Below, piece after piece: positions 3,245-51,580 of a DNA stretch of 64,000 nt (positions are counted from its first letter, which is position 1; every line of letters begins with the position of its first letter). Under the pieces are notes generated by a model. It saw nothing but the letters and a program-made list of their open reading frames with translations, was not told where the DNA came from and searched no databases. Source of the DNA: an uncultured Acidimicrobiaceae bacterium (GTDB taxonomy: Bacteria > Actinomycetota > Acidimicrobiia > Spongiisociales > UBA5794); assembly GCA_964460075.1 (NCBI GenBank), contig CAYWPC010000010.1:3102-67101 (forward strand), read 5' to 3'. A program made the translations under genes and the position numbers.

Positions 3245-4350
3245 ACCGCCTCGACAACGATCCCGACGGTTTCGAGCTCTGGAAGCAGTTCGGATCCGAC
3301 AACGGCCTCACTCATGGTGCGTACGCCGGGCCTGTGCACCGCTCCATTCGCTATCAGGTCGGCGAGGGCTGTGGCTGGGAAGGCAGTCGTCCGAGCGAGA
3401 GCAGAGAAGTCGCCGCGTTGCGTGTCCTCGATTTGGACGGTGGTCGTGACACCGTTCTGGCGTCGCCACACACGGACGAGGACGAGGTCAGGCGCGCCAC
3501 TAGGAAGGCTTCGGCTCAGTGAGTCCAGGAGGACAGCGCGCGGGGCGACTTCGGTTGCACTTACTCCACGTGCCATCTCGTCGAACAGGCCGAGTTCCAG
3601 CATGGCTCTGAACGTCTGCCCATGGCCAGGGAACCGCAGCGTCTTGTACTCAAGATCTGTGACACGCCCCTGGTGGGTCGTGCACATGGTGGATGTGCCA
3701 CCAGCGGTCGAGAATGCCTCGAGCGGCCCCCAGCGATCCCAGGCAACGTCCTCAAGGCGTGTGAGTGGCTCGACTGTGGTGTACATACCGTTCTCGATGA
3801 CCTCACACGGCTCTGCGTACTCGTTGATGAGTCCCGCGGGGCTGAACGCGAGCTGATACCCCAGAGCGCCCACAGGTATCTGAGGGAGCGCTCCGACGCG
3901 GAGTTGGATGCTCTCGATCGGGCCCTCGTCGGCAGACCGTATGAGGTCCTCACCGAGCACGTTCGCAAGGCCAGGTGCAAGTCCACAATCTGGGACGATC
4001 ATTACCCCAGCAGCAAACGCATCGTCGTGAAGGCGCTTCTGTTCGGCTACAACGGTCGGGTTGCCACCAAAATCCAGGTAGTGCGTCTCGGTCGCTACGG
4101 CTGCCGAGGCGACGCCGACACCGTATCGGTATGGAACTGCGCTCACGACGACCTCGCACGTTTCGAGCAGGTGCCTCACTGCTTGCTCGTCTGCCACATC
4201 GATCGTTACGGGTCGTGCCCCGTAGGCGTGGGCAACGCGTCGGGATGCCTCGATGTCGGCATCTGCGACGATCACGTCGTGGCCCCGCCGCTCGAGGTCC
4301 CACACTGCCGCGGATCCGACGATCCCCGCGCCGAGTACCAGTGTTGTCAT
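3241..4350 (-). CDS. Saccharopine dehydrogenase / lysine 6-dehydrogenase family oxidoreductase
   Basis: LGAGIVG Rossmann motif; DCGLAPGLANV and EAFSTAGGTST-YKTLRFPGH family motifs. Confidence 0.85.
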   Translation of the reverse strand: MTTLVLGAGIVGSAAVWDLERRGHDVIVADADIEASRRVAHAYGARPVTIDVADEQAVRHLLETCEVVVSAVPYRYGVGVASAAVATETHYLDFGGNPTVVAEQKRLHDDAFAAGVMIVPDCGLAPGLANVLGEDLIRSADEGPIESIQLRVGALPQIPVGALGYQLAFSPAGLINEYAEPCEVIENGMYTTVEPLTRLEDVAWDRWGPLEAFSTAGGTSTMCTTHQGRVTDLEYKTLRFPGHGQTFRAMLELGLFDEMARGVSATEVAPRAVLLDSLSRSLPSGAPDLVLVRVWRRQNGVTTTVQIEDTQRGDFSALARTTAFPATALADLIANGAVHRPGVRTMSEAVVGSELLPELETVGIVVEAV

Positions 4351-9439: not shown

Positions 9440-11428
9440 TCAGCCGGAGTACACGCCGACCGTGAGGGTGATCGTTGTTCCCGGCTGCACCCACTCATCT
9501 CTCGCGGGGTCCTGGGCAAGGACGATGTTGTCGTTGGAGTGAGCATTGACGCTCTTGAGCTGCTTGGCAGCGAGCATGCCCTGATTCTCGAGAGCGGTGA
9601 GTGCCTGTTCCCAGGTCTTCCCGACCACTGAGCTCAACTGCACAGGACAATCAACCGGTTCCCCTGTGACCTCGCATGGATGGACAGTCCATTTCTCGGA
9701 CAGAGGTCGATACCGCCAGTCGAGGTTCAGGTCCGTCTCGGTGCGCCCGTCTGGATAGGTGACGATGCGATCGACGTGGATCTTGAAGCCGTCGATGCCG
9801 TTGCGTTCCTTCCTCTGTTCTCCAGGAGCGAGCTCGCCTTCTTCATCGGCGACGAATTCGACGGTGAACGGGACGATGTCCTCCTTTTCGCCAGCCACCG
9901 ACTCGCACGTGCGACCACCGTTGTCGCCATACATCTTGACCGTGATCGACGTTGGTGTATATGCAGTCTTGATGATGACCGGAAAATCGGTGTTGTTGCG
10001 AAACTTCACATCGGGTTTGGGGAATCCGAGCGTTGCTTCTCGGCCGGCTGGGTATCGCGTGAAAGACAGGGAGTGGGGGCGATGTTCGATGTCTTCGAGG
10101 CATGAGAAGAATACAGCGTTGAACAGTGTCGTTCCGAATTGGCTCACGCCGCCACCGATATTCGCAGGATTGTCGCAGCAATAGGGTTGACCGTTGATGA
10201 TTGCGGGAGCAGCGACGTATCCGCCCTGCTCCGTTCGCTTGCCGACGTGATCGTTTATCGACCACTCGTCGCCTGGGAGCACGATCGCTCCGTCGACATC
10301 GTCTGCCATCTGCTGGATGTTGATGACCCGAGGCTGGTTGGCCGGGTGCTCAGTTGTGAATCCAGCGAGCGGCTTGAGCGTGGTGAACGCCTGAGCGTCT
10401 TGTGTCGTGAATGCCGGTTCTGCCCCTACGAGTACAGGAAATTCACCCATTCCCGATCCCATGGCTGCCTGTTTCATCTCGTCCAGAAGCGCTTCTGTGT
10501 CGAGCAACGTCCCGTTTCGGCTCGGGATGATCGCAAACTCATCCGTTTCGAGGTCGATATCGAAGCGAGCATCGACAGGCTCGACCTCGTATTCGGGTCG
10601 TCGCACGTCGAGAATCTCGAGCACCCGGTCTTCGTCGAACGTGACCTCGATTGCGTCTCCCTGCGGCGTGACTTCCGCTCGTACAGCAGTCGTTAGCTGG
10701 TCGACGCTGAAGGTCGTTCTGAATGAGATCTCCGTCGCTCTCAACGTGATGGGCTGGGAGATCATCTGCTCCATCTCAGCTCGGGCAGCGTCGATTTGTT
10801 CATTGGTGAGCCCTGGGCTCTCGGCAATGACAGGTATATCGGCATCTGCCTTGTCGAGCGTCGACATCACGTCCTTGATGGTCGTGAATGCCGAGGGGCG
10901 ATCGATCGCTTCTCCCTCCCTTGGATATTCGGCAACCACGCCATGGTCGACGATCGTGAGGGAACCGTTGAACGCCGGATCCTGAATAGCTGCCGCCTCC
11001 CACGCATCGACTGCGACACCGATGGCGACGTCATCGAATGCAACACGAAGCGGAACACTGTTCGACGACGAGAACGACCGAATCCACGACACGAAATCTC
11101 CGATAAGCCCGTCAGAGCGCCCAATAGCGAATGCGGCATCGACAGCGGAGCGGACATCGGCCTTGAGCCCTATCGAGATCGGGCTCAACTTGAACACGAC
11201 GCCGTTGACGGTGAATACGCCTGTGCTCGACCGCAACTCGTTCTCGTATGCCGAAACTGCGAGGGATGCGTCGCTCAGGTTGAGCCCACCGACGGGTACG
11301 CCGGCGATGGTCACGTTTCGTTCGATTGTCTCTGAGGACGCAACCCGGTCTGCGACGTAGATGGCGAGAGGGAGCAGCAGGATTGCCAGGGGAACGACAA
11401 TGAATAAGGTTCTGCGTGGCGGCTTCAT
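9440..11428 (-). CDS. Membrane-anchored VanW-family protein with PG-binding-4-like region and C-terminal PASTA domain (paralog 1)
   Basis: N-terminal TM helix; VanW core (INIQQMAD...FSINDHVG-like, GGGVSQFGTTLFNA, RPHS, GREAT, DVKFRN); PASTA-like VVGKTWEQA...VLAQDP. Confidence 0.8.
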   Translation of the reverse strand: MKPPRRTLFIVVPLAILLLPLAIYVADRVASSETIERNVTIAGVPVGGLNLSDASLAVSAYENELRSSTGVFTVNGVVFKLSPISIGLKADVRSAVDAAFAIGRSDGLIGDFVSWIRSFSSSNSVPLRVAFDDVAIGVAVDAWEAAAIQDPAFNGSLTIVDHGVVAEYPREGEAIDRPSAFTTIKDVMSTLDKADADIPVIAESPGLTNEQIDAARAEMEQMISQPITLRATEISFRTTFSVDQLTTAVRAEVTPQGDAIEVTFDEDRVLEILDVRRPEYEVEPVDARFDIDLETDEFAIIPSRNGTLLDTEALLDEMKQAAMGSGMGEFPVLVGAEPAFTTQDAQAFTTLKPLAGFTTEHPANQPRVINIQQMADDVDGAIVLPGDEWSINDHVGKRTEQGGYVAAPAIINGQPYCCDNPANIGGGVSQFGTTLFNAVFFSCLEDIEHRPHSLSFTRYPAGREATLGFPKPDVKFRNNTDFPVIIKTAYTPTSITVKMYGDNGGRTCESVAGEKEDIVPFTVEFVADEEGELAPGEQRKERNGIDGFKIHVDRIVTYPDGRTETDLNLDWRYRPLSEKWTVHPCEVTGEPVDCPVQLSSVVGKTWEQALTALENQGMLAAKQLKSVNAHSNDNIVLAQDPARDEWVQPGTTITLTVGVYSG

Positions 11429-11528
11429 GAACGTTTCACGGTGGAGGAGCTGTGGACAGCAAGTGTAGGAAGGCGTACCGAGAATTCTGGGCACCTGCCG
11501 GTCCCGCGGCGCCAGGGATCAGGGACGT

Positions 11529-13589
11529 TTAGCCTCCGCCCGTGTAGTTGCCTACGACAATCGTGACGGTCCCCCCGAGATCTTGAAACTCGGCAGGGGT
11601 CACGGAGAGAACGATGCCGTCCTCAGCGACCTCGGTCGTGTCCTGGGGACTCACCTCGACGATGAATCCTGCTGCCGTCAAGATACTCGACGCGTCTGCC
11701 GTGGTGAGACCTGACACTGCAGGGATTGCAACGGGGCAGACGCCGTCGCCACCGACCCGTTCATCACATGCGTTGAGCAATATGACGTTCTTTGCGCCTC
11801 TGTACCGCCAGAAGAACTTCTCACGCTTTATCTCGTTGCCGTCAGCGTCGTAGAAGATGCGCCAGTTCGTGATGCTCCAGCCACCGGAGCCCTTCGACTT
11901 TATCTCTTCTTCCCCTGGGGCGACGACACCGTCGGGATCGACCTTGTACATGACGACCGGTGGCGTGAGGTTCGACCGTGCGGAGCGTTCGGTGCCACAG
12001 GTTTTTCCCTCTTGGTTACCGAAGAACGTCATGGTGATCGAATGTTCGGTGTAGGAGCCCTTGATGATGACAGGAGCGTTCGAGTCGTTTTCGAACGCGA
12101 CGTCCGGTTTGGGGTACCCGAGCGTCGCCTCTCGGCCTTCTGGGTACTTCGAGAAGTAGATGCTGTGAGGCTGACTTACGACATCCTTGTAGCACCCGAA
12201 ATAGATGGCGTTGAAGATCGTCGTACCGAACTGGCTCACACCTCCGCCGATGTTGACCGTGTCCTGCCCACACGCCAGCTCGCCGCTGACGATCGCGCAG
12301 TCGTATTTGAAGCCCTTCTCCAAGGTGCGCTGTCCGATGAATTCGTTGACGGAGAACGTTTCGCCCGGCCACACGATCGCGCCGTCAACGAGGTCCGCCA
12401 TCAGGCGGATGTTATCTGCACGGTTCCTGCCAGGCATGTAGGTGGTGAATTCGGACACCTCGTACAGATCCCCGTAGGCCTGGGCGTCTGCGGTCGTGAA
12501 GTCAGCCTCCGGCGTGAGATCGAGCGGTAAGAATCCCGTACCATCGCCGAGCGCCGCCTTCTCGACTGCAGCGAACACGTCGTCGACGTTGACCGACGTT
12601 CCAGACAACGACGGCACGAGTTCGATCGTGTCGTTGAGCGGGAGACCGTCAACGCCCGGTGGCCGTGGCGGGTCTGGGATCTCGAAGTTCTCGTTCCACG
12701 GTTCTGTGTCGTCGACGAGGACGATGTCCCAGCGAGCATCCGTTGGTGGTACCTCGAGACTGCTCCTCGCCCGTTCGATGAGTGGTGCAATGACAGACCG
12801 ATCGATGGAGAACTCGAAGTCGGCGCTGCCGTTGGTTGCAACCTTCACGTTGAGCGAGCGGGCTGTGTTGAACGAGTTGACCGCGAAGGTGAATCCGTAG
12901 GTGTCATTGACGAGTTCGACACCCCTGGTGATGATCGACTCTGCTCGTTGGGCCGCAGCGTCGATGTCGGCACGCGTGTGCACAGGAGTCGTTATCGCAG
13001 TCGGAAGCACGATCGTCTTCGCTGACCCTGCCACGAGTGCCGCCTTGATCAGGTCTATCGACACCTTGCGGTCGAGAGCCTCACCGGTCGTGGGGTACTT
13101 CGTGACAGCTCGCTGATTGAGAATGTCGATGGCGCCTTCGAACGCGGGATTCGGTATGGCTGTCTGCTCCCACTGGGTGAATAGGTCGTCGAGAAGGTCC
13201 TCGTCGATGGATGCGGTCACCGGCACGTCGACCTCGTCGGAGAATGCCTTCAACCAATCGGTTACGCCGTTCTTGTATTGCTCCATTGCGAGGGAGACTG
13301 CCGCCTCGGTGTCGAAGGTGAGGTTGACCTCGTCTGGTCGCAGCATGAACGTGGTGCCGTTCACTTCGATGATCGCGGTGTTGGCAAGAAGATCCGCCGT
13401 GTATGCGTCGACTGCGGCGGTGGCCTCGGCCTCTGTGTATCTGGCGACGTCGATACCGGAAATCGAAACATTTCGAGCGACCTTATCTGAGGCGGACGCG
13501 CTGTCCATGAAATAGACGGTCAAGGGCAGGAGCAGTATCAACGCTGGAACCGCGATGAGGAGAAGTATTCTTGATTTCGGGGTTGCCAT
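11529..13589 (-). CDS. Membrane-anchored VanW-family protein with C-terminal PASTA domain (paralog 2)
   Basis: Same architecture: GGGVSQFGTTIFNA, PHS, GREATLG, DVAFEN; PASTA IPAVSGLTTADA. Alternative GTG start at 13601. Confidence 0.8.
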   Translation of the reverse strand: MATPKSRILLLIAVPALILLLPLTVYFMDSASASDKVARNVSISGIDVARYTEAEATAAVDAYTADLLANTAIIEVNGTTFMLRPDEVNLTFDTEAAVSLAMEQYKNGVTDWLKAFSDEVDVPVTASIDEDLLDDLFTQWEQTAIPNPAFEGAIDILNQRAVTKYPTTGEALDRKVSIDLIKAALVAGSAKTIVLPTAITTPVHTRADIDAAAQRAESIITRGVELVNDTYGFTFAVNSFNTARSLNVKVATNGSADFEFSIDRSVIAPLIERARSSLEVPPTDARWDIVLVDDTEPWNENFEIPDPPRPPGVDGLPLNDTIELVPSLSGTSVNVDDVFAAVEKAALGDGTGFLPLDLTPEADFTTADAQAYGDLYEVSEFTTYMPGRNRADNIRLMADLVDGAIVWPGETFSVNEFIGQRTLEKGFKYDCAIVSGELACGQDTVNIGGGVSQFGTTIFNAIYFGCYKDVVSQPHSIYFSKYPEGREATLGYPKPDVAFENDSNAPVIIKGSYTEHSITMTFFGNQEGKTCGTERSARSNLTPPVVMYKVDPDGVVAPGEEEIKSKGSGGWSITNWRIFYDADGNEIKREKFFWRYRGAKNVILLNACDERVGGDGVCPVAIPAVSGLTTADASSILTAAGFIVEVSPQDTTEVAEDGIVLSVTPAEFQDLGGTVTIVVGNYTGGG

Positions 13590-13691
13590 CTCGTGCTCCA
13601 CAGAGTTCGCTTTGGCGGCGTGGCGCGAGTATATGTGTCGGCTTCAGATAGGCGTTCCCTTTCCGAGCATGACGCACGATACGATGTCGAT

Positions 13692-14462
13692 GTGACGGCA
13701 TTCGACGAACTTGGCCCAGGCGAGGCGCTCCCCGTCTCCGCGACGCTGTATGTGACGTATCTCCGTTGTCCTCAACAGGCCCTTGCACGGCTTCAAGGCG
13801 TGTACGCCCGGACCACGAGAGCGTCTTTCAAAGGCATCCTCGCACATCGAATCTTTGCTCACCATCTCGAAGAAGGGCCAATCGATCAGCACGACTTCGA
13901 GCAGGTATGTCGGCGAGAGGCCGGTGCACATCTCGGTGAGATGATGGCTTCGCTTGGCATGAAACCGTCCGAGTTTCGGGTAATGGTTGGCGAGATCGCC
14001 GAGTTGTACGAGCGATTCAATGCCGTGCCGATGGATGGATTCGTCGAGGCGGAGAAGTCGATGGAAGCCGAGCCGGTGGCGGGTGTACGTTTGCGTGGGA
14101 GGGTGGACGCAGTGTTCAACGACGCAGGGTCTGTGCGCATCGTCGACTGGAAGACGGGTTCGAACATTGGAGGTGCAGAGCCCCAGCTCGACTTCTACGC
14201 GATGATGTGGAACGAGGCGTTTGGATCGCCGCCGCAGTCGCTCGAGGCCTTGTCGATCAGAACGGGCGAGAAGATCGTCACGAGGCCAAGCAATGACGAC
14301 ATCGAGCGCGTTCAGCGCGATGTCGCATTGATGATTGCCGAGCTTCGATCGGCAATCAAGGAACATCGTGAACTGCCTCGAAGGGCAGGGCCTCTCTGTT
14401 CGTGGTGCCCGCTGCTCGACGACTGCTCAGAGGGATCAGCTGCTGTGTCAATCTTGACATAG
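13692..14462 (+). CDS. PD-(D/E)XK (RecB/Cas4-like) nuclease
   Basis: RCP...GILAH...RGRVDAV...IVDWKTG...QLDFYA...CSWCPLLDDC. GTG start preceded by TACGAT-N6. Confidence 0.85.
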   Translation: MTAFDELGPGEALPVSATLYVTYLRCPQQALARLQGVYARTTRASFKGILAHRIFAHHLEEGPIDQHDFEQVCRREAGAHLGEMMASLGMKPSEFRVMVGEIAELYERFNAVPMDGFVEAEKSMEAEPVAGVRLRGRVDAVFNDAGSVRIVDWKTGSNIGGAEPQLDFYAMMWNEAFGSPPQSLEALSIRTGEKIVTRPSNDDIERVQRDVALMIAELRSAIKEHRELPRRAGPLCSWCPLLDDCSEGSAAVSILT

Positions 14463-33229: not shown

Positions 33230-34819
33230 TCAGGCATCGAGGATCTCGTAGGCAGGAAGGGTCAGGAACTCGGGGAACTCGTCAGAGAGCGCGACCTGCT
33301 CGAAGAGTGCCCTTGCTTCGTCGAAGCGAGATGCGTCATAGACCGCGTGGCCAAGCTCGGCGCGAACACGGTCGGTCTCTTCGTCTGCGATCTTGCGGAT
33401 GAGCTCGGGGGTGATCCGTGTGCCGTTCTCGGTCGACGAGGCAGAGTGCACCCACTGCCAGATCTGGGACCGAGAGATCTCAGCGGTCGCTGCGTCCTCC
33501 ATGAGGTTGTAGATCCCCGCCGCTCCGACGCCAGAGAGCCACGATGCGATGTAGCGGATCGCGATGTCGACGTTCTGCCTGACTCCGCCTTCCGTGATCG
33601 ATCCCCCTTGCACCGTGAAGTCGGTCAGATCTTCGACGGTGACTGCCACGTCATCGCGTTGCTTGGACAGTTGATTCGGGGCATCACCGAGAACGTCGTC
33701 GAAGATGCGGGTCACGAGCGGCACGAGATCGGGGTGTGCGACCCACGTGCCATCGCAGCCGTCGCCTGCCTCTCTCTCCTTGTCTTGCGTGACCTTGGCG
33801 AACGCGACTCGGTTGACCTCGTCGTTGCTCCTCGAAGGAATGAAGGCTGCCATTCCGCCCATTGCATGTGCGCCTCGCTTGTGGCACGTCTTGACTAGGA
33901 GCTCCGTGTATGCCCGCATGAACGGAACGGTCATAGCAATCTGTGCCCTGTCTGGCAGCGCTGGCACCCCAGCGGACCGGAACTTCTTTATGACGGAGAA
34001 GATGTAATCCCATCGACCGGCGTTGAGGCCACCGCAATGGTCGCGCAGTTCGTAAAGGATCTCGTCCATCTCGAATGCCGCGGGAATCGTTTCGATGAGA
34101 ACCGTTGCCCTCACGGTGCCGACGTCGATGCCGAGCACGTCCTGAGCATGTAGGAATACGTCGTTCCAGAGCCTCGCCTCGCGATGGCTCTCAAGCTTTG
34201 GAAGGTAGAAATACGGCCCAGAGCCTCGATCGATGAGAGCCGAGGCGTTGTGGAAGAAGTAGAGCCCGAAATCGAACAACGACGCCGAAACGGGAATGTC
34301 ATCGATCGTCACGTGGTGTTCGTCGAGATGCCAGCCTCTGGGCCTGACCATCAGCGTCGCGGTATCCGTGTCGAGTGCGTATTGCTTGCCCTGATCGTTG
34401 GTGAAGTCGATGCGCCCGCGGATTGCGTCGAACAGGTTGATCTGACCCTCGACCATGTTCGACCACGTTGGCGAGTTCGAGTCTTCGAAATCGGCCATAA
34501 ACACCTTCGCTCCGCAGTTCAACGCGTTGATGATCATCTTGCGATCGGTCGGGCCCGTGATCTCGCAGCGACGGTCGACCAGGTCGAGGGGTGCGGGCCG
34601 AACGGACCACTCGGCGGATCGCACGTTCGCTGTTGAGGTGAGAAACCCCAGGGGTGCGCCATCGTCGAACTGGATCTGACGCTCCCGTCTGATATCGAGG
34701 AGATGGAGTCGCGTTTCGTTGAATCGTGTGTGGAGATCCGCGACGAACTCGAGCGCGTCGTCAGCCAGCATGTCCGAGAAGTGGAGGCCCATCGGTCCCT
34801 CTATCGTGATGTCGTGCAT
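33230..34819 (-). CDS. aceB: Malate synthase A
   Basis: [36 protein letters not shown] and [14 protein letters not shown] motifs. Confidence 0.97.
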
Positions 34820-34930
34820 GGCACTCCTTTCGATCTCTCAACAGGAAAGACGAAAATTGCTGATTATGCGACCAGCCTGCAATAAAAGAAACGCTATACT
34901 TTCGCATGTTGGCGACAGATGGGCATTTTC

Positions 34931-36379
34931 ATGACGACGATCGATCCTCTGATGTTCGGACAGCGTGTTCGGCACTACCGCAAGAAGTCCAACATGACCC
35001 TTGACGACCTCGGGGCGATCGTCGGCAAGCCTGCTCCGTACCTGTCGTTGCTCGAGAACGGCAAGAAGGAACCGAAACTCGGTGTGATCAACGACCTGTC
35101 GATTGCCTTCGGTGTGGACGCCACTGACCTTCTGGCCCAAGAGGCACCGACACGGCGGGCCGAACTCGAGGTCATGATCGAGCGAGCGCAGCGTGACCAG
35201 GCCTACCGCGATCTCGGTCTTCCGTACTTCAGACCCGGCTCTCGCGTACCGGACGCGGCGCTCGAACACCTCGTCAGGTTGTATGAGGAGCTTCGTGGTC
35301 GGGACGCGGCAGCGAACTTCACCAGGGACGAGGCACGGGCGGCGAATGCGCAGCTACGAGCAGAGATGACATCACGGGGTAACTACTTTGCGGAGATCGA
35401 GAAGATTGCAGCCGAGGCGGTCGCAGCGATCGACTTCACGGGTCAAGGAGCGATGTCGAAGGGGGACTTGAACGCGCTCGCAGCTCATTTCGGGTTCAGG
35501 GTCATCCGTACCCAGGACATTCCTGCGTCGGTCCGCTCTGTGACCGATACGAGGAACGGGAAGATTTTCGTGCATGGTCGTGACAGCTTCGACTCCAAAC
35601 AGGCTCGTTCTGTGATCCTTCAAACGCTTGGCCATTTCGCTCTCGAGCACCCGGATCCGCAAGACTTTGGAGACTTCCTGCGTCAGCGTGTCGAGGTCAA
35701 CTACTTTGCTGGTGCGGTCCTTGTGCCTGAGGCATCCGCCAGCCGTTTCCTGCTCGATGCCAAAGCAGACCGAAACCTGTCGGTCGAGGACCTCAAGGAC
35801 CGATTCTTCGTGTCCTATGAGATGGCAGGCCACCGGTTCACGAATCTCGCAACGGAGCACCTCGACCTCGGCACGCACTTCGTGCGCTCTGACGATCAGG
35901 GCATTATCTGGAAGGCATACTCGAACAACGGTGTGCCGTTCCCTAAGAACTCCGCCGGCGCCATCGAGGGGCAGAGACTGTGCCATGAGTGGGGTACGAG
36001 ACAGGCGTTCACCTCTGACGCTCGCTTTACCATTCATTACCAGTACACCGACACCTCAGCCGGAACCTTCTGGTGCGCTACCTTCGTCGAGACGGCCCAC
36101 GAGCCGGCACATGCGATCACTGTCGGCGTCAGATTCGAGGATGCACGCTGGTTCAGGGGATGGAATACCGAGCGCCACACTGCGTCGAAGTGTCCTGATG
36201 GCGAGTGCTGCCGATATGTGAGCGAAGACGCAGCAGAGCGATGGAACGGATACGCCTGGCCCTCTGTTCGGCCAAACTCGCATGTGCTTGCTGCAATGCC
36301 TGTTGAGACGATCCCCGGCGCTGACATGGTGGAGATCTACGACTTCCTGACACAACAGGAGAGAGAGGCGTTCCACTAG
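34931..36379 (+). CDS. ramB: XRE/ScfR-family regulator (RamB/PrpR-like), divergent from aceB-aceA
   Basis: N-terminal XRE HTH (YLSLLENGK), IrrE-like central region (QTLGH, NYFAGAVL) and C-terminal Cys motif KCPDGECC; classic RamB position. Confidence 0.8.
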   Translation: MTTIDPLMFGQRVRHYRKKSNMTLDDLGAIVGKPAPYLSLLENGKKEPKLGVINDLSIAFGVDATDLLAQEAPTRRAELEVMIERAQRDQAYRDLGLPYFRPGSRVPDAALEHLVRLYEELRGRDAAANFTRDEARAANAQLRAEMTSRGNYFAEIEKIAAEAVAAIDFTGQGAMSKGDLNALAAHFGFRVIRTQDIPASVRSVTDTRNGKIFVHGRDSFDSKQARSVILQTLGHFALEHPDPQDFGDFLRQRVEVNYFAGAVLVPEASASRFLLDAKADRNLSVEDLKDRFFVSYEMAGHRFTNLATEHLDLGTHFVRSDDQGIIWKAYSNNGVPFPKNSAGAIEGQRLCHEWGTRQAFTSDARFTIHYQYTDTSAGTFWCATFVETAHEPAHAITVGVRFEDARWFRGWNTERHTASKCPDGECCRYVSEDAAERWNGYAWPSVRPNSHVLAAMPVETIPGADMVEIYDFLTQQEREAFH

Positions 36380-49055: not shown

Positions 49056-49875
49056 CGGCGGTCTGCCATGCAGGACACAGCGTTGCCTTGAAGTCGCACC
49101 AGTCGCACAACGCAGACGTGGTAGGTGGCCACGTATCGGTCTCAATCGCATGCTCGATTGCCGTCCACAGCGCCTCGAGTTGACGTTCCATGGCATCGAG
49201 CTGTGCGTCGGTGATATCCATGGTGTACTCGGTTGGCCCGTTGAGATACAGGAGTCGAACGCGGTCGGGCGTGACGCCCTTGGTGATTCGGATCAGCAAC
49301 GCGTAGATTTTCAGGGCGAAGAAGGCCTTGTGTGCGAATCGTTGCGGCGGGGCTCTCCCCGTCTTGTAGTCGGTGATCACCAGCACTTCTCGCACGGAGC
49401 CGTCGGTATCGACCTCGGTGATGTGCTCCATTCGGTCGAGGATTCCCCTGATCGTCATGTCGTTCACCGGAACCGTGAGGTCCATCTCGAGCTCGAGCGG
49501 TTCGAATGACGACGGATCCTCCACCGTGAAGTATGAGGCGAGAAGCTCAAGAGACTCAATTCCCCATTGGCGTTCGTCGTCGAGAGACGTGAACAGATCC
49601 GGGTATTCATCAGTTTTGAGCTCGGTCCATGCGGATCGAAAGAGGTCGTAGAGCTGCTCGGGTGTTCGCTGCGCAGCGGGGAGTTGGAACAGACGTTCGA
49701 GGGCGAGATGTGCCGTTGTGCCTCGAGCCTGGTGTACGGTCGGCTCGGTTGGGATCTTGTCGATGGATTTGAACTTGTACAGCTGAGGGCACGTCTTGAA
49801 ATCGCTGGCCCTGCTCGGAGACAGACTCGTCAGCGTGTGCCCTGTCGTGGGGGTGTCGGTGGGTTCGGTAGCCAT
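49045..49875 (-). CDS. RecB-family/Cas4-like exonuclease (Rv2119-like)
   Basis: LSPSRASDFKTCP, RGTTAHLALE, RGILDRM, TDYKTG and CDWCDFKATLC motifs; overlaps the adnA start. Confidence 0.88.
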   Translation of the reverse strand: MATEPTDTPTTGHTLTSLSPSRASDFKTCPQLYKFKSIDKIPTEPTVHQARGTTAHLALERLFQLPAAQRTPEQLYDLFRSAWTELKTDEYPDLFTSLDDERQWGIESLELLASYFTVEDPSSFEPLELEMDLTVPVNDMTIRGILDRMEHITEVDTDGSVREVLVITDYKTGRAPPQRFAHKAFFALKIYALLIRITKGVTPDRVRLLYLNGPTEYTMDITDAQLDAMERQLEALWTAIEHAIETDTWPPTTSALCDWCDFKATLCPAWQTADAG

Positions 49876-49881
49876 GCTCGC

Positions 49882-49903
49882 AGCGTACTTGCCTGCTGTG
49901 ACA
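49882..49903 (-). promoter_or_regulatory. PafBC/RecA-NDp-type DNA-damage promoter (TGTCAC-N10-TACGCT), leaderless
   Basis: Minus strand reads TGTCAC agcaggcaag TACGCT gcgagc ATG, matching the spacing of the TGTCRG-N10-TANNNT consensus (5/6 in the upstream element). Confidence 0.65.
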
Positions 49904-49977: not shown

Positions 49978-50051
49978 CGCGAAAAACGTGTGTGGGTCGC
50001 GAAAAGCACATGACGTTGTGAGCTACACAGGTGACGGCAGTTCCGTAGTTT
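49978..50051 (+). promoter_or_regulatory. Candidate ncRNA-A promoter: tandem CGCGAAAA boxes plus -10 TAGTTT
   Basis: Boxes at 49978-49985 and 49998-50005; -10 at 50046-50051, the same offset as in unit B. Confidence 0.6.
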
Positions 50052-50058
50052 CCCAAAT

Positions 50059-50470
50059 ATCCAGAGACGTAAGTCGATGGAGTGGCACAGGGCAAGCTCC
50101 TCACCCGAGCAGGCCTAACCGGGCGACCGGGTGCCTTTGCAGCGAAGGGCGACCGGAGCTGCAGCCTGCCGCTTCGGCGGTAGGCACAAGGTCTCGAGCA
50201 GGAGCCCAGCCTTCGAGAGGCCACCGGAGGTCCGCCGTGAGGTTGGGTCTCCACCCGGAGGCGACCTCGGTCGCCGCCGTAGCGTTTCTGCGAACCTCGG
50301 TTCGTATGAGCGGTTCCGTCCAGTGATGGAGACCTCGGTCCTCGTCGAGGACGGAGCACCCCGGGAGGAGTCGGGAGACTGGCGAGACCCGGATTGGAGT
50401 GACTGTGTCACTTCGCTTGAGAACCCCGAGAGGGCGAGGCCTCGGCCGAGCTTCCTCGGGGTTTCTCTTA
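50059..50470 (+). ncRNA. Putative novel structured ncRNA A (about 410 nt)
   Basis: Dense hairpins with UUCG, GNRA and four c(CUCG)g loops; a GAA/GGA-GNRA module; terminal hairpin homologous to ncRNA B; no credible CDS; convergent with the downstream gene. Confidence 0.65.
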
Positions 50471-50476
50471 TGTTGG
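50419..50476 (+). terminator. Intrinsic terminator-like hairpin ending ncRNA A
   Basis: GAGAACCCCGAG...CTCGGGGTTTCTC followed by TTATGTT. Confidence 0.7.
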
Positions 50477-50532
50477 CGGTGCTTGCCTCAGCGCTCCTCT
50501 GCTCCCCAATCTTGTCCACTTCCGGCGCGGCG

Positions 50533-51165
50533 TCAGCACGTCGGCTCGATTGCGATGAAGTCGACGACCCCCGAGTCACCCGGCGCGTCGAGTTTGCCGA
50601 CCATGTGGGGATCAGAGGAGCCGTCGACGACGAACGTCGCGGAGGCGATGTCGTAGGCATCCGTGACGCTGACCCGAGCGCCGTAGGAGTCGACGAGGTC
50701 ACGCCTTGTAGATCCGAGGCCTACGCCTTCTCGAGTGCGAAGGTTGGAATTCCTGAGGTCCACGGAGTTGGCGGTCACCGGATCGAAACCGTAGGACCAG
50801 CTCGCAAGGCGCTCACCGTCGACGTCCGCAATGAAGACGAGAGCGAGGGAGCCCCAAGACACGACACGGGCAGCACCGCTTGGGCATTCGGGGGCAGCAA
50901 CGGTGCTTGCGTCCTCACGTGAGTCGGCGTCCCACCCGCCGATTGCTGCAGCTATGCCAGCGATCACGGTCTCGGCATCGTCGCCGATGGCGAACGGCCC
51001 GATAGCGTCGCTTGTCAGCGTCAGATCGGTGGAAGGGGTCGGTCCGGAGGGGAGACTCGTCGTTGTCGACGGCTCGGCTGTGACGACCGGTTGTGAGATC
51101 GAACAGGCGCCTGCGAGCAGTGCAAGAGCCGTTGCGAGACGAAAAATAGGCGGAATCGAACGCAT
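50533..51165 (-). CDS. Hypothetical lipoprotein
   Basis: Lipobox LAGAC, Thr/Pro linker, one Cys pair; leaderless TACCGT-N6-ATG promoter. Confidence 0.75.
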   Translation of the reverse strand: MRSIPPIFRLATALALLAGACSISQPVVTAEPSTTTSLPSGPTPSTDLTLTSDAIGPFAIGDDAETVIAGIAAAIGGWDADSREDASTVAAPECPSGAARVVSWGSLALVFIADVDGERLASWSYGFDPVTANSVDLRNSNLRTREGVGLGSTRRDLVDSYGARVSVTDAYDIASATFVVDGSSDPHMVGKLDAPGDSGVVDFIAIEPTC

Positions 51166-51186
51166 TTCGCAACGGTAGTCGGGAGA

Positions 51187-51260
51187 CGCGAAAACTCGTC
51201 GTGGCTCGCGAAAAGCAATCAGCGTTCCAGGTTGCGAAGCCTCTCTGCATGTGCCAAATT
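51187..51260 (+). promoter_or_regulatory. Candidate ncRNA-B promoter: tandem CGCGAAAA boxes, -35 TTGCGA, N17, extended -10 TGn-CAAATT
   Basis: Boxes at 51187-51194 and 51207-51214; TTGCGA at 51232-51237; CAAATT at 51255-51260. Confidence 0.62.
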
Positions 51261-51267
51261 AATGCTT

Positions 51268-51580
51268 ACCGCAAAGGGGCAACCCGGAGCGGACCGCAAT
51301 CGGGGAGACCCGGGAGCGGGTGCCGAAGGGAAACCGGAGGCATCCGGTGTAAAAACCGGTGACCGGTCTGGAAACGGGCCGGGTCCTTGAGAGGGCACCC
51401 TCGGGTGTTCGGGGCGTCCGCCCCAGTCCTCGGCTTCGGTCGACGACAATCACAAGGAGGGTGCGAGTCTCGATTCGCATCTGGCTCCGCTTGCGGAGCA
51501 GCGAAACCGAAGGCCGCAAGGTCGGAGGCGACGTAGAGAACACCCCAAGGGGGCTTCGGCTTCCTTGGGGTTTCTCGTTG
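51268..51580 (+). ncRNA. Putative novel structured ncRNA B (about 310 nt)
   Basis: About 13 consecutive hairpins, mostly capped by GNRA/UUCG/CUUG/CUCG loops; four RAW/GGA-GNRA modules; terminal hairpin; the downstream gene has its own leaderless promoter. Confidence 0.75.

What the first reader, a model, noticed from the sequence alone, without database searches (positions are those of the whole stretch)
49978..51217. Conserved tandem CGCGAAAA boxes (20-bp period) upstream of both candidate RNAs: unknown activator site
Seen: CGCGAAAAacgtgtGTGGgTCGCGAAAAGCA (49978-50008) and CGCGAAAActcgtcGTGGcTCGCGAAAAGCA (51187-51217). Box centres fall at about -77 and -57 from the inferred +1 in both units, on roughly the same helical face, as expected for a class I activator. 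Each pair also lies upstream of a divergent leaderless gene (nuclease-adnAB; lipoprotein). I do not recognise the motif. Box 1 of A contains the palindrome TTCGCGAA, loosely like the TTTGCAAA sites of ScfR/RamB-type regulators (one is encoded at 34931), but the spacing differs, so that link is speculative.
Basis: partly seen in the sequence, partly recalled or inferred. Interest (0 to 1): 0.65.

Follow-up and report, generated by a model that had tools for sequence, protein, structure and literature searches.

The report
Conserved tandem CGCGAAAA promoter-upstream boxes
Two copies of the 8-base word CGCGAAAA sit at a fixed distance upstream of the promoters of two structured non-coding RNAs, and the same arrangement recurs across the class Acidimicrobiia, also in front of the ribonucleotide reductase gene nrdJ and the replication initiator gene dnaA, so it is most likely the binding site of an undescribed transcription regulator.

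Summary
CGCGAAAA-N12-CGCGAAAA occurs only at 49978-50005 and 51187-51214; 0.01 matches are expected by chance.

The window comes from an uncultured Acidimicrobiia bacterium. Each box pair lies upstream of a sigma-70-type promoter for a terminator-ended structured RNA that has covariation support and no Rfam family.

In orthologous loci fetched by protein homology (25 RNA promoters, 31 promoters in all), box 2 is essentially invariant. It always ends 17 nt before the -35 element (TTGCNN). Box 1 lies 11-12 nt upstream of box 2, and the spacers between them are randomised.

The same architecture occurs upstream of nrdJ in several Acidimicrobiia. One instance lies between dapF and a relA/spoT-like gene. 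In six AT-rich Actinomarina-type genomes the pair lies upstream of dnaA, with box 2 at the -35 position.

It is therefore a class-wide cis-regulatory motif, not a leftover of the RNA gene duplication.

Best reading, at about 0.6 confidence: tandem sites for an unidentified activator that contacts RNA polymerase from about -57 and -77. An UP-element-like direct polymerase contact is the main rival.

The suggested RamB link is not supported. No transcription data exist and the factor is unknown. I found no description of the motif.

The parts
49978..49985 (+). Box 1 of unit A (CGCGAAAA), centre about -77
   Evidence: Exact match. Conserved as CGCGAAA[A/T] in orthologous A promoters.
49998..50005 (+). 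Box 2 of unit A (CGCGAAAA), centre about -57
   Evidence: Exact match. Seven of the eight positions are identical in all 31 homology-fetched promoters and the eighth in 30 of 31.
50022..50051 (+). Core promoter of RNA A: weak -35 (GCTACA/CTACAC, 50022-50028) and -10 TAGTTT (50046-50051)
   Evidence: Assigned from register with orthologues, in which TTGCNN-N17-TAnnTT occupies the same columns. The strict consensus scan found no promoter.
50057..50470 (+). RNA A, a structured non-coding RNA of about 410 nt ending in a terminator hairpin and T-run (50422-50470)
   Evidence: Fold z-score -5.9. 100 consensus pairs, 45 with compensatory changes in 8 species. No Rfam match.
51187..51194 (+). Box 1 of unit B (CGCGAAAA), centre about -77
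   Evidence: Exact match. Conserved in orthologous B promoters; the spacer to box 2 is 12 nt, or 11 nt in three loci.
51207..51214 (+). Box 2 of unit B (CGCGAAAA), centre about -57
   Evidence: Exact match. Essentially invariant, and always 17 nt before the -35.
51232..51260 (+). Core promoter of RNA B: -35 TTGCGA (51232-51237), 17-nt spacer, extended -10 TGc-CAAATT (51252-51260)
   Evidence: Columns conserved across species: TTGC at 0.87-1.0 frequency, and the A and T of the -10 hexamer at 0.74 and 0.87.
51267..51580 (+). RNA B, a structured non-coding RNA of about 315 nt and a paralogue of RNA A, ending in a near-invariant terminator hairpin (51542-51580)
   Evidence: Fold z-score -6.0. Terminator scan hit. 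73 consensus pairs, 23 with compensatory changes in 10 species. Aligns with unit A.
49873..49903 (-). Divergent leaderless promoter of the PD-(D/E)XK nuclease-adnAB operon: TGTCACAG-N8-TACGCT-N6-ATG. This is context only and does not depend on the boxes.
   Evidence: Conserved in 11 orthologous loci. It lies about 100 bp from box A1.
51163..51177 (-). Divergent leaderless start of the lipoprotein gene: -10 TACCGT (51177-51172), 6 nt, then ATG (51165). Box B1 begins 9 nt further upstream, inside this promoter's spacer.
   Evidence: The ACGGTA block is conserved next to box 1 in B units of orthologues.

Best explanation
The two CGCGAAAA boxes are tandem, same-orientation binding sites for a sequence-specific DNA-binding protein that is conserved in the class Acidimicrobiia and has not been identified. 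The protein occupies box 2 (centre about -57) and box 1 (centre about -77), on roughly one face of the helix. From there it stimulates the primary-sigma RNA polymerase bound at the adjacent TTGCNN (-35) and TAnnnT (-10) promoter, most plausibly through the alpha-subunit C-terminal domain, as class I activators do. Box 2 is the essential site. Box 1 is an auxiliary or cooperative site whose distance can vary by a base. The same factor controls a small regulon that varies by lineage. It includes the two structured RNAs next to the nuclease-adnAB operon, the B12-dependent ribonucleotide reductase gene nrdJ, and, in Actinomarina-type genomes, dnaA. At dnaA the pair sits one step closer, so that box 2 takes the place of a -35 element; this would mean class II-type activation or repression. 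In unit B, occupancy of box 1 should also interfere with the back-to-back lipoprotein promoter. What is shown: the motif, its conservation, its fixed register with the promoter, its orientation, and its occurrence at unrelated genes. What is inferred: that a protein binds it, that the effect is activation, and that the contact is with alpha.
For: (1) Non-random: 2 matches against 0.01 expected.
(2) Purifying selection: in 31 promoters fetched by protein homology, not by the motif, box 2 carries 1.7-2.3 bits at all 8 positions (seven invariant, one at 30 of 31). Box 1 is nearly as conserved. The 12-nt spacer and the flanks carry 0-0.5 bits. The boxes are better conserved than the -35 and -10 hexamers.
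(3) Fixed register: box 2 ends exactly 17 nt before the -35 in all RNA and nrdJ promoters, and 18 nt in L118. The box-to-box spacer varies from 11 to 13 nt. L130 unit A and the L146 nrdJ promoter keep only box 2, in the correct register.
(4) Orientation is always the same relative to the downstream promoter.
(5) Independent promoters: nrdJ in L008, L143 and L144; dnaA in six loci whose DnaA proteins are only about 59% identical and whose genomes are AT-rich; and the dapF-relA intergenic region in L118. The shared boxes therefore do not simply reflect the A/B duplication.
(6) Ten further Acidimicrobiia hits from the blind genome scan all lie at the nuclease-linked RNA locus, with nuclease identity down to 54%.
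(7) The invariant G+C core (CGCG) points to base-specific recognition rather than general A/T-richness.
(8) The core promoters are imperfect: -10 CAnnnT with a TG extension in B, and a poor -35 in window unit A. This is typical of promoters that need help.
Against: There is no transcript evidence. The organism is known only from a DNA metagenome, and metatranscriptome contigs over the Actinomarina dnaA region run straight through the intergenic region, so they give no start site. The strict promoter scan found no sigma-70 consensus, so the -35, -10 and +1 assignments rest on alignment. No candidate regulator gene was found in the window or in conserved synteny. I could not show two different target genes in one genome. 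Three of seven nrdJ loci examined lack the boxes. In L032, L088 and L118 an exact pair occurs without any recognisable promoter downstream. At the Actinomarina dnaA sites, box 2 at the -35 position fits repression as well as activation.
Confidence: 0.6

Rival explanations
1. The boxes are an UP-element-like promoter module. The phased A4 tracts, with their CGCG flanks, are contacted directly by the alpha C-terminal domains of Acidimicrobiia RNA polymerase, or they bend the upstream DNA. Either way strong promoters are boosted without a dedicated regulator.
For: The A-tract of box 2 (-56 to -53) falls in the distal UP subsite region. Further conserved A positions follow at +10, +11 and +14 from the start of box 2. 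The register with the -35 is fixed, as expected for a direct polymerase contact. The downstream genes include abundant-looking stable RNAs with strong terminators.
Against: The most invariant part is the G+C core CGCG, whereas the -40 to -52 region is not A/T-rich. UP elements do not show this kind of base-specific invariance; that statement rests on established knowledge of rrnB P1-type UP elements. Among about 17 promoter-type Acidimicrobiia hits in the blind scan, none was next to an rRNA, tRNA or other known stable RNA gene. The element is found at only some nrdJ promoters. In Actinomarina it sits at the -35 position, which an UP element would not occupy.
Confidence: 0.17
2. The boxes are operators of a repressor or dual regulator, or sites for a nucleoid-associated or looping protein. 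Their main job would be to shut down or coordinate neighbouring promoters, including the divergent lipoprotein promoter and dnaA, rather than to activate the RNA promoters.
For: In unit B, box 1 lies within the spacer of the back-to-back leaderless lipoprotein promoter, and this spacing is conserved. In Actinomarina, box 2 overlaps the -35 position of a dnaA promoter. In L118 two pairs face each other about 230 bp apart, which would suit looping.
Against: At the RNA, nrdJ and L118 forward promoters the boxes lie wholly upstream of the -35, separated from it by an invariant 17-18 nt. That position is unusual for simple repression, and the strict register is unnecessary for it. Unit A, nrdJ and L118 have no divergent promoter within reach.
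Confidence: 0.13
3. The shared boxes have no function. They are promoter sequence copied when the RNA gene duplicated, and they are retained by chance or by low divergence.
For: RNA A and RNA B are paralogues that share promoter, body and terminator similarity.
Against: Spacers and flanks are randomised between species while the boxes are invariant. The motif also occurs at non-homologous promoters: nrdJ, dnaA and dapF-relA. It is retained in genomes of about 33% G+C, where a CGCG-containing 8-mer pair is very unlikely by chance.
Confidence: 0.02

Closest known systems
Class I / class II activator sites (CRP-type positioning at -61.5/-71.5 and -41.5)
   Same: The site lies upstream of the -35 at a fixed distance. 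Positions step by about 20-23 bp: -33.5 and -53.5 in Actinomarina, and -56.5 and -76.5 elsewhere. It is therefore on about the same helical face, and the core promoters are imperfect.
   Different: It is not a palindrome and has no TGTGA-N6-TCACA. Instead there are two 8-bp direct repeats 19-21 bp apart. The protein is unknown, and activation has not been demonstrated.
Tandem direct-repeat sites of winged-helix response regulators (OmpR/PhoB; actinobacterial PhoP, GlnR, MtrA) and AraC/XylS-type half-sites
   Same: Repeats are head-to-tail and orientation-dependent. One site is proximal and essential, the other distal and auxiliary. The pair can sit either upstream of the -35 or in its place. 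AraC-type half-sites repeat every ~21 bp.
   Different: OmpR/PhoB-type repeats have a 10-11 bp period, not 19-21. The box sequence matches none of the published PhoP, GlnR or MtrA consensus sequences as I recall them; this was not tested against a motif library. AraC-type sites normally abut the -35.
UP element and Fis upstream activating sites of stable-RNA promoters (E. coli rrnB P1, ssrS, nrd, dnaA)
   Same: It is an upstream element at strong stable-RNA promoters, with an A-tract near -55. In E. coli, Fis also acts on the nrd and dnaA promoters (from my own knowledge), which parallels the gene set seen here.
   Different: The core is an invariant CGCG, the -40 to -52 region is not A/T-rich, and the element was not seen at rRNA or tRNA genes in the sample. 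Fis is absent from Actinobacteria.
Eukaryotic G1/S promoter elements (SCB CRCGAAA of SBF; E2F TTTSGCGC; MCB ACGCGT)
   Same: The word is identical (CGCGAAA / TTTCGCG). Those elements also lie upstream of ribonucleotide reductase and replication-initiation genes. The literature search for the octamer returned mainly E2F papers.
   Different: The domain of life and the proteins are entirely different. The resemblance comes from memory plus the literature hits and is a lead only. There is no evidence for a related DNA-binding domain here.
RamB/ScfR operator (A(A/G)AACTTTGCAAA)
   Same: Only the loose, partly palindromic T-rich/A-rich look of TTCGCGAA in one box.
   Different: The sequence and spacing differ and the palindrome is not conserved. 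The RamB-like gene in the window sits next to malate synthase, its usual target context.

Membership tests
Class I-type upstream activator site | Site lies wholly upstream of the -35, at a fixed distance and orientation relative to the core promoter | tested here: met
   Box 2 ends 17 nt before the TTGCNN -35 in all 25 RNA promoters and the nrdJ promoters, and 18 nt in L118. The orientation is always the same.
Class I-type upstream activator site | A specific protein binds the site and raises transcription through contact with RNA polymerase | not testable with these tools
   The organism is uncultured. Only DNA runs hold the window, and RNA contigs for the Actinomarina locus are uninformative.
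UP element | A/T-rich sequence spanning about -40 to -60, without invariant G/C positions | tested here: not met
   The conserved columns are CGCGAAAA at -60 to -53. Positions -52 to -39 are mixed or G+C-rich apart from three A columns.
UP element | Stimulation by RNA polymerase alone, through the alpha C-terminal domain | not testable with these tools
   This needs in vitro transcription.
OmpR/PhoB-type tandem repeat operator | Direct repeats with a 10-11 bp period | tested here: not met
   The start-to-start period is 20 bp in most promoters, 19 bp in four and 21 bp in one.
RamB/ScfR operator | 13-bp motif A(A/G)AACTTTGCAAA near the regulated promoter, with the regulator usually next to acetate or glyoxylate genes | tested here: not met
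   The boxes show no such motif. The TTCGCGAA palindrome is not conserved. The RamB-like gene is paired with malate synthase, 15 kb away.
CRP/FNR-type site | 22-bp inverted repeat TGTGA-N6-TCACA | tested here: not met
   Only direct repeats are conserved.
DnaA box / NrdR box | TTATCCACA 9-mer, or tandem 16-bp palindromes acaCwAtATaTwGtgt | tested here: not met
   The boxes differ from both. Separate DnaA-box-like and NrdR-box-like sequences lie further downstream in the nrdJ leaders.
Known RNA family downstream (6S, Ms1, others in Rfam 15) | Match to a curated covariance model | tested here: not met
   No match at gathering score in the window or in 18 related loci. Only chance-level matches appear at E up to 10. 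The Ms1 gene neighbourhood (HAD-IB hydrolase / oxidoreductase; PMC9130861) is not the one seen here.

The most novel reading that the evidence does not exclude
The boxes mark a class-wide replication or growth regulon in Acidimicrobiia. One unknown regulator would couple initiation of replication (dnaA), dNTP supply (nrdJ), possibly (p)ppGpp metabolism (relA), and two abundant structured RNAs encoded beside the double-strand-break repair operon. The RNAs would then themselves be part of replication or cell-cycle control. The recognition word is the same as that of eukaryotic G1/S factors (SCB/E2F), so the regulator might carry a convergent or even related DNA-binding domain, for example KilA-N/APSES-like or winged-helix.
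Probability: 0.15. Interest if true: 0.85.

Novelty: new member of a known kind. Interest (0 to 1): 0.6.

Why it matters
Acidimicrobiia are abundant in oceans, soils, mats and wastewater, but almost nothing is known about how they regulate genes, because few of them are cultured. This motif is short and sharply defined, and it can be searched for directly in genomes and metagenomes. It ties together two uncharacterised structured RNAs, ribonucleotide reductase and the replication initiator. That gives a concrete handle for fishing out the regulator with a 60-bp DNA bait, for predicting when the RNAs are made, and for asking what they do. It also survives in the roughly 1-Mb streamlined Actinomarina genomes, which keep very few regulators. 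That narrows the list of candidate proteins and suggests the control is fundamental.

Tried and rejected
- Rfam at gathering and at permissive thresholds, on the window and on 18 related loci: nothing.
- Ms1 identity for the RNAs: rejected on gene neighbourhood and on the lack of any model match.
- Strict sigma-70 scan: no hit. Promoters had to be read from conservation.
- RNA-seq: no RNA run holds the window. Marine metatranscriptome contigs hold the Actinomarina dnaA region, but as contigs that run through it, so no start site could be read.
- Blind genome-collection scan: stopped at 120 rows, so it samples the motif's distribution rather than listing it completely. Most hits were chance matches or GCGAAAA-type simple repeats in other phyla.
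- RamB link: rejected.
- Literature search for the octamer: only eukaryotic E2F work and incidental primer sequences. A search on Acidimicrobiia regulation returned nothing relevant.
- Search for a regulator gene near the boxes, using Pfam on about 35 window proteins: only the RamB-like protein and an orphan GAF histidine kinase, neither in conserved linkage.
- The reversed box pairs in L032, L088 and L118: I first took these for coding sequence. They turned out to be one conserved intergenic element in three different contexts. This remains unexplained.
Full report
**What is there**

The pattern CGCGAAAA-N12-CGCGAAAA, even allowing two mismatches, matches only at 49978-50005 and 51187-51214. 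Shuffled sequence gives 0.01 matches. Four of the five CGCGAAAA octamers in the window belong to these two pairs. The fifth lies inside a pyruvate kinase gene.

The nuclease protein next to the boxes has its closest relatives in MAGs labelled Acidimicrobiia. The only public run holding this DNA is a microbial-mat metagenome. The source is therefore an uncultured Acidimicrobiia bacterium of about 60% G+C.

**What lies downstream**

Each box pair precedes a gene-free stretch that ends in a strong hairpin and T-run. Both stretches fold far better than shuffled controls, with z-scores of -5.9 and -6.0, and they align with each other.

Alignments with orthologues from other species give consensus structures made of many short hairpins capped by GNRA or UUCG loops. 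RNA B has 73 predicted pairs, 23 of them with compensatory changes. RNA A has 100 pairs, 45 with compensatory changes. No Rfam family matches, either at curated or at permissive thresholds. The conserved gene neighbourhood of Ms1 RNA (PMC9130861) is not the one seen here.

The 'candidate RNAs' are therefore real structured non-coding RNAs. They are paralogues of each other and appear to be uncharacterised.

**Promoter anatomy**

The strict consensus scan finds no sigma-70 promoter, so I read the promoters from cross-species conservation.

- Seventeen nucleotides after box 2 comes a hexamer that is TTGCNN or TTGACN in nearly every species. In window unit B it is TTGCGA (51232-51237). Window unit A has a degenerate CTACAC/GCTACA.
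- Seventeen to eighteen nucleotides further on comes a TAnnTT hexamer in A-type promoters (TAGTTT, 50046-50051), or a TG-extended CAnnnT hexamer in B-type promoters (TGc-CAAATT, 51252-51260).

**Conservation test with loci chosen independently of the motif**

I fetched orthologous loci through the nuclease protein: four by exact-protein look-up and fourteen close relatives from metagenomes.

- Every locus that contains the RNA units has the boxes. That makes 25 RNA promoters with the pair, plus one (L130 unit A) that keeps only box 2, in register, where a microsatellite has replaced box 1.
- Over 31 promoters not selected by the motif, box 2 is invariant at seven positions and 30 of 31 at the eighth (1.7-2.3 bits per position). 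Box 1 is nearly as conserved.
- The spacer between the boxes and the flanks carry essentially no information.
- The boxes are more conserved than the -35 (TTGC, 1.3-2.3 bits) and the -10.
- The gap from box 2 to the -35 is 17 nt without exception. The gap between the boxes is 12 nt, or 11 nt in three B units.
- A short extension follows box 2 (CGCGAAAA-nn-AA-nn-A) and a GGG run precedes the -35. Both are also conserved.
- The base before each box varies, so the TTCGCGAA palindrome seen in window unit A is not a conserved feature.

**Distribution beyond the RNA genes**

I scanned 185,579 species genomes for the exact pair. Most hits in other phyla are chance matches or GCGAAAA-type simple repeats. 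The Acidimicrobiia hits fall into clear groups:

1. Ten loci lie at the same nuclease-linked RNA locus, with nuclease identity down to 54%. All have box 2-N17-TTGxxx-N17-(-10) followed by a GNRA hairpin.
2. Six AT-rich Actinomarina-type loci carry TTCGCGAAAAC twice in the rpmH/rnpA-dnaA intergenic region, pointing at dnaA. The DnaA proteins of these genomes are only about 59% identical, and the surrounding intergenic DNA has diverged. Here box 2 is followed after 17 nt by a -10-like hexamer (TATAAT, CACAAT, CGTAAT and similar), so box 2 sits where a -35 would be.
3. L008 has the full architecture (N17-TTGCTG-N17-TAGAAC) in front of a roughly 240-nt leader and the B12-dependent ribonucleotide reductase gene.

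I then fetched nrdJ loci by homology. The pair is present with one or two mismatches and the same register in L143 and L144. L146 has a single box 2 in register. L145, L147 and L148 have none.

L118 has a pair (13-nt spacer, N18-TTGACT-N17-CATATT) between dapF and a relA/spoT-like gene.

None of these loci contains any Rfam-known RNA. In particular, none of the sampled sites lies next to rRNA or tRNA genes.

**Interpretation**

The motif has an 8-bp word with an invariant G+C core. It is repeated head-to-tail, is always oriented the same way, and is locked in register with the -35 element. It is retained at non-homologous promoters across a whole class, including genomes of about 33% G+C. This is the signature of a sequence-specific protein-binding site that works together with RNA polymerase.

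Its position wholly upstream of the -35, the strict register of box 2, the looser placement of box 1 and the imperfect core promoters all fit an activator of the class I type, with box 2 as the primary site. The Actinomarina arrangement is shifted by about 23 bp. This is the kind of step seen between class I and class II sites of one activator, but it is equally compatible with repression of dnaA.

I put the activator reading at about 0.6. The rivals are:

- A direct polymerase contact or bend (UP-like), at about 0.17. It is weakened by the CGCG invariance, by the lack of A/T-richness at -40 to -52, and by the absence of stable-RNA genes other than these two RNAs among the sampled sites.
- A mainly repressive or architectural role, at about 0.13. 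Its support is that box B1 lies inside the spacer of the back-to-back leaderless lipoprotein promoter, that box 2 sits at the -35 position in Actinomarina, and that two pairs face each other in L118.
- A functionless relic of duplication. The conservation pattern excludes this.

The observation, the geometry and the 'unknown upstream site' reading hold. The site is not peculiar to the two RNAs, and it is not tied to divergent leaderless genes: the nrdJ site and the L118 site have co-directional genes upstream.

The RamB idea fails. The protein at 34919-36379 is an XRE-HTH plus M78-peptidase regulator divergent from malate synthase. That is the classic RamB setting. Its own intergenic region has no box.

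**Comparison with known systems**

By position the motif behaves like a class I/II activator site. By repeat type it resembles the tandem sites of response regulators or AraC-type proteins, but its 19-21-bp period, its sequence and its distance from the -35 fit none of them.

The word itself is identical to the yeast SCB and close to E2F sites, which also precede ribonucleotide reductase and replication genes. This is a curiosity from memory and from the literature hits, not evidence of relationship. I found no paper describing the motif in bacteria.

**Limits**

- There are no transcription data and no identified factor.
- The regulon is sampled, not enumerated.
- I found no case where two different targets were shown in one genome.
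- One conserved context is unexplained. In L032, L088 and L118 an exact pair is followed by GGGCCC(T/G)CCCCCGCC(A/G)CCACC instead of a promoter, in three different gene neighbourhoods.

**Verdict**

This is a real, deeply conserved and apparently undescribed cis-regulatory motif of Acidimicrobiia. It is most likely the tandem binding site of an unknown activator that links two new structured RNAs with nrdJ and dnaA. It is a new member of a familiar kind of element. Interest is moderate to high, because it is directly testable and opens regulation in a poorly studied class.

Noticed in passing
window 49873-49903 (- strand); same block in L001-L004, L125-L133: The PD-(D/E)XK nuclease-adnAB operon starts with TGTCACAG-N8-TACGCT-N6-ATG, conserved in 11 orthologous loci. 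It looks like the RecA-NDp / PafBC-type DNA-damage promoter of other Actinobacteria and implies a leaderless mRNA.
   Followed up: partly
window 50057-50470 and 51267-51580 (+): These are two paralogous structured RNAs of about 410 and 315 nt with strong covariation, many GNRA/UUCG-capped hairpins, purine-rich AAGG/GGAG stretches and almost invariant terminator hairpins. They match no Rfam family. They keep conserved synteny (bPH_2/SHOCT gene - RNA B - lipoprotein - RNA A - nuclease - adnAB) across Acidimicrobiia.
   Followed up: partly
window 51163-51194: The lipoprotein gene is leaderless (TACCGT, then 6 nt, then ATG on the - strand). Box B1 starts 9 nt upstream of that -10, so the two promoters are back to back and a protein on the boxes would sit in the lipoprotein promoter's spacer and -35 region. 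This spacing is conserved in orthologues.
   Followed up: partly
L032 1568-1640 (+), L088 3885-3957 (-), L118 3415-3487 (-): An exact box pair is followed by a conserved G+C-rich block GGGCCC(T/G)CCCCCGCC(A/G)CCACC instead of a promoter. It occurs in three different neighbourhoods: nuoD-nuoH, upstream of a BatA-like membrane protein, and dapF-relA. It looks like a dispersed intergenic element. In L118 it faces a normal forward pair about 230 bp away.
   Followed up: partly
L008 3290-3440; L143 about 1850-1990; L144 about 1830-1980; L146 about 1330-1480: The nrdJ leaders carry NrdR-box-like palindromes (for example CCCAACATCTTGTGGG and CTAGATATAGGGG) and paired DnaA-box-like 9-mers (TGTGGATAG, TGTGGACAA) between the box-dependent promoter and the start codon. 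Three layers of control may therefore converge on nrdJ.
   Followed up: no
window 33230-36379: A RamB/ScfR-like regulator (XRE HTH plus IrrE/M78 peptidase domain, 486 aa) lies divergent from malate synthase. This is an ordinary acetate/glyoxylate regulatory pair, unrelated to the boxes.
   Followed up: yes
L001 2150-2250 and 3290-3350; L126 about 2190-2260; L130 about 3905-3950: Short species-specific microsatellites (CTGTCGG, TCTGT-rich, ATAACGG and TTTGGTG repeats) flank the RNA units. In L130 one of them has replaced box 1 of unit A.
   Followed up: no
L011, L026, L083 (Verrucomicrobiota); L012, L021, L033, L069, L076, L124 (Comamonadaceae): The search pattern also hit unrelated conserved sequences. 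One is a shared TTGCGCGAAAAG...GTGRCYCGCGAAAAAAAACC block in three Verrucomicrobiota. The other is inverted arrays of GCGAAAA-type 10-bp repeats in Comamonadaceae.
   Followed up: no
window 9440-13601 and 13593-14462: There are two adjacent paralogous VanW-PASTA proteins, and a second PD-(D/E)XK nuclease gene about 35 kb from the first.
   Followed up: no
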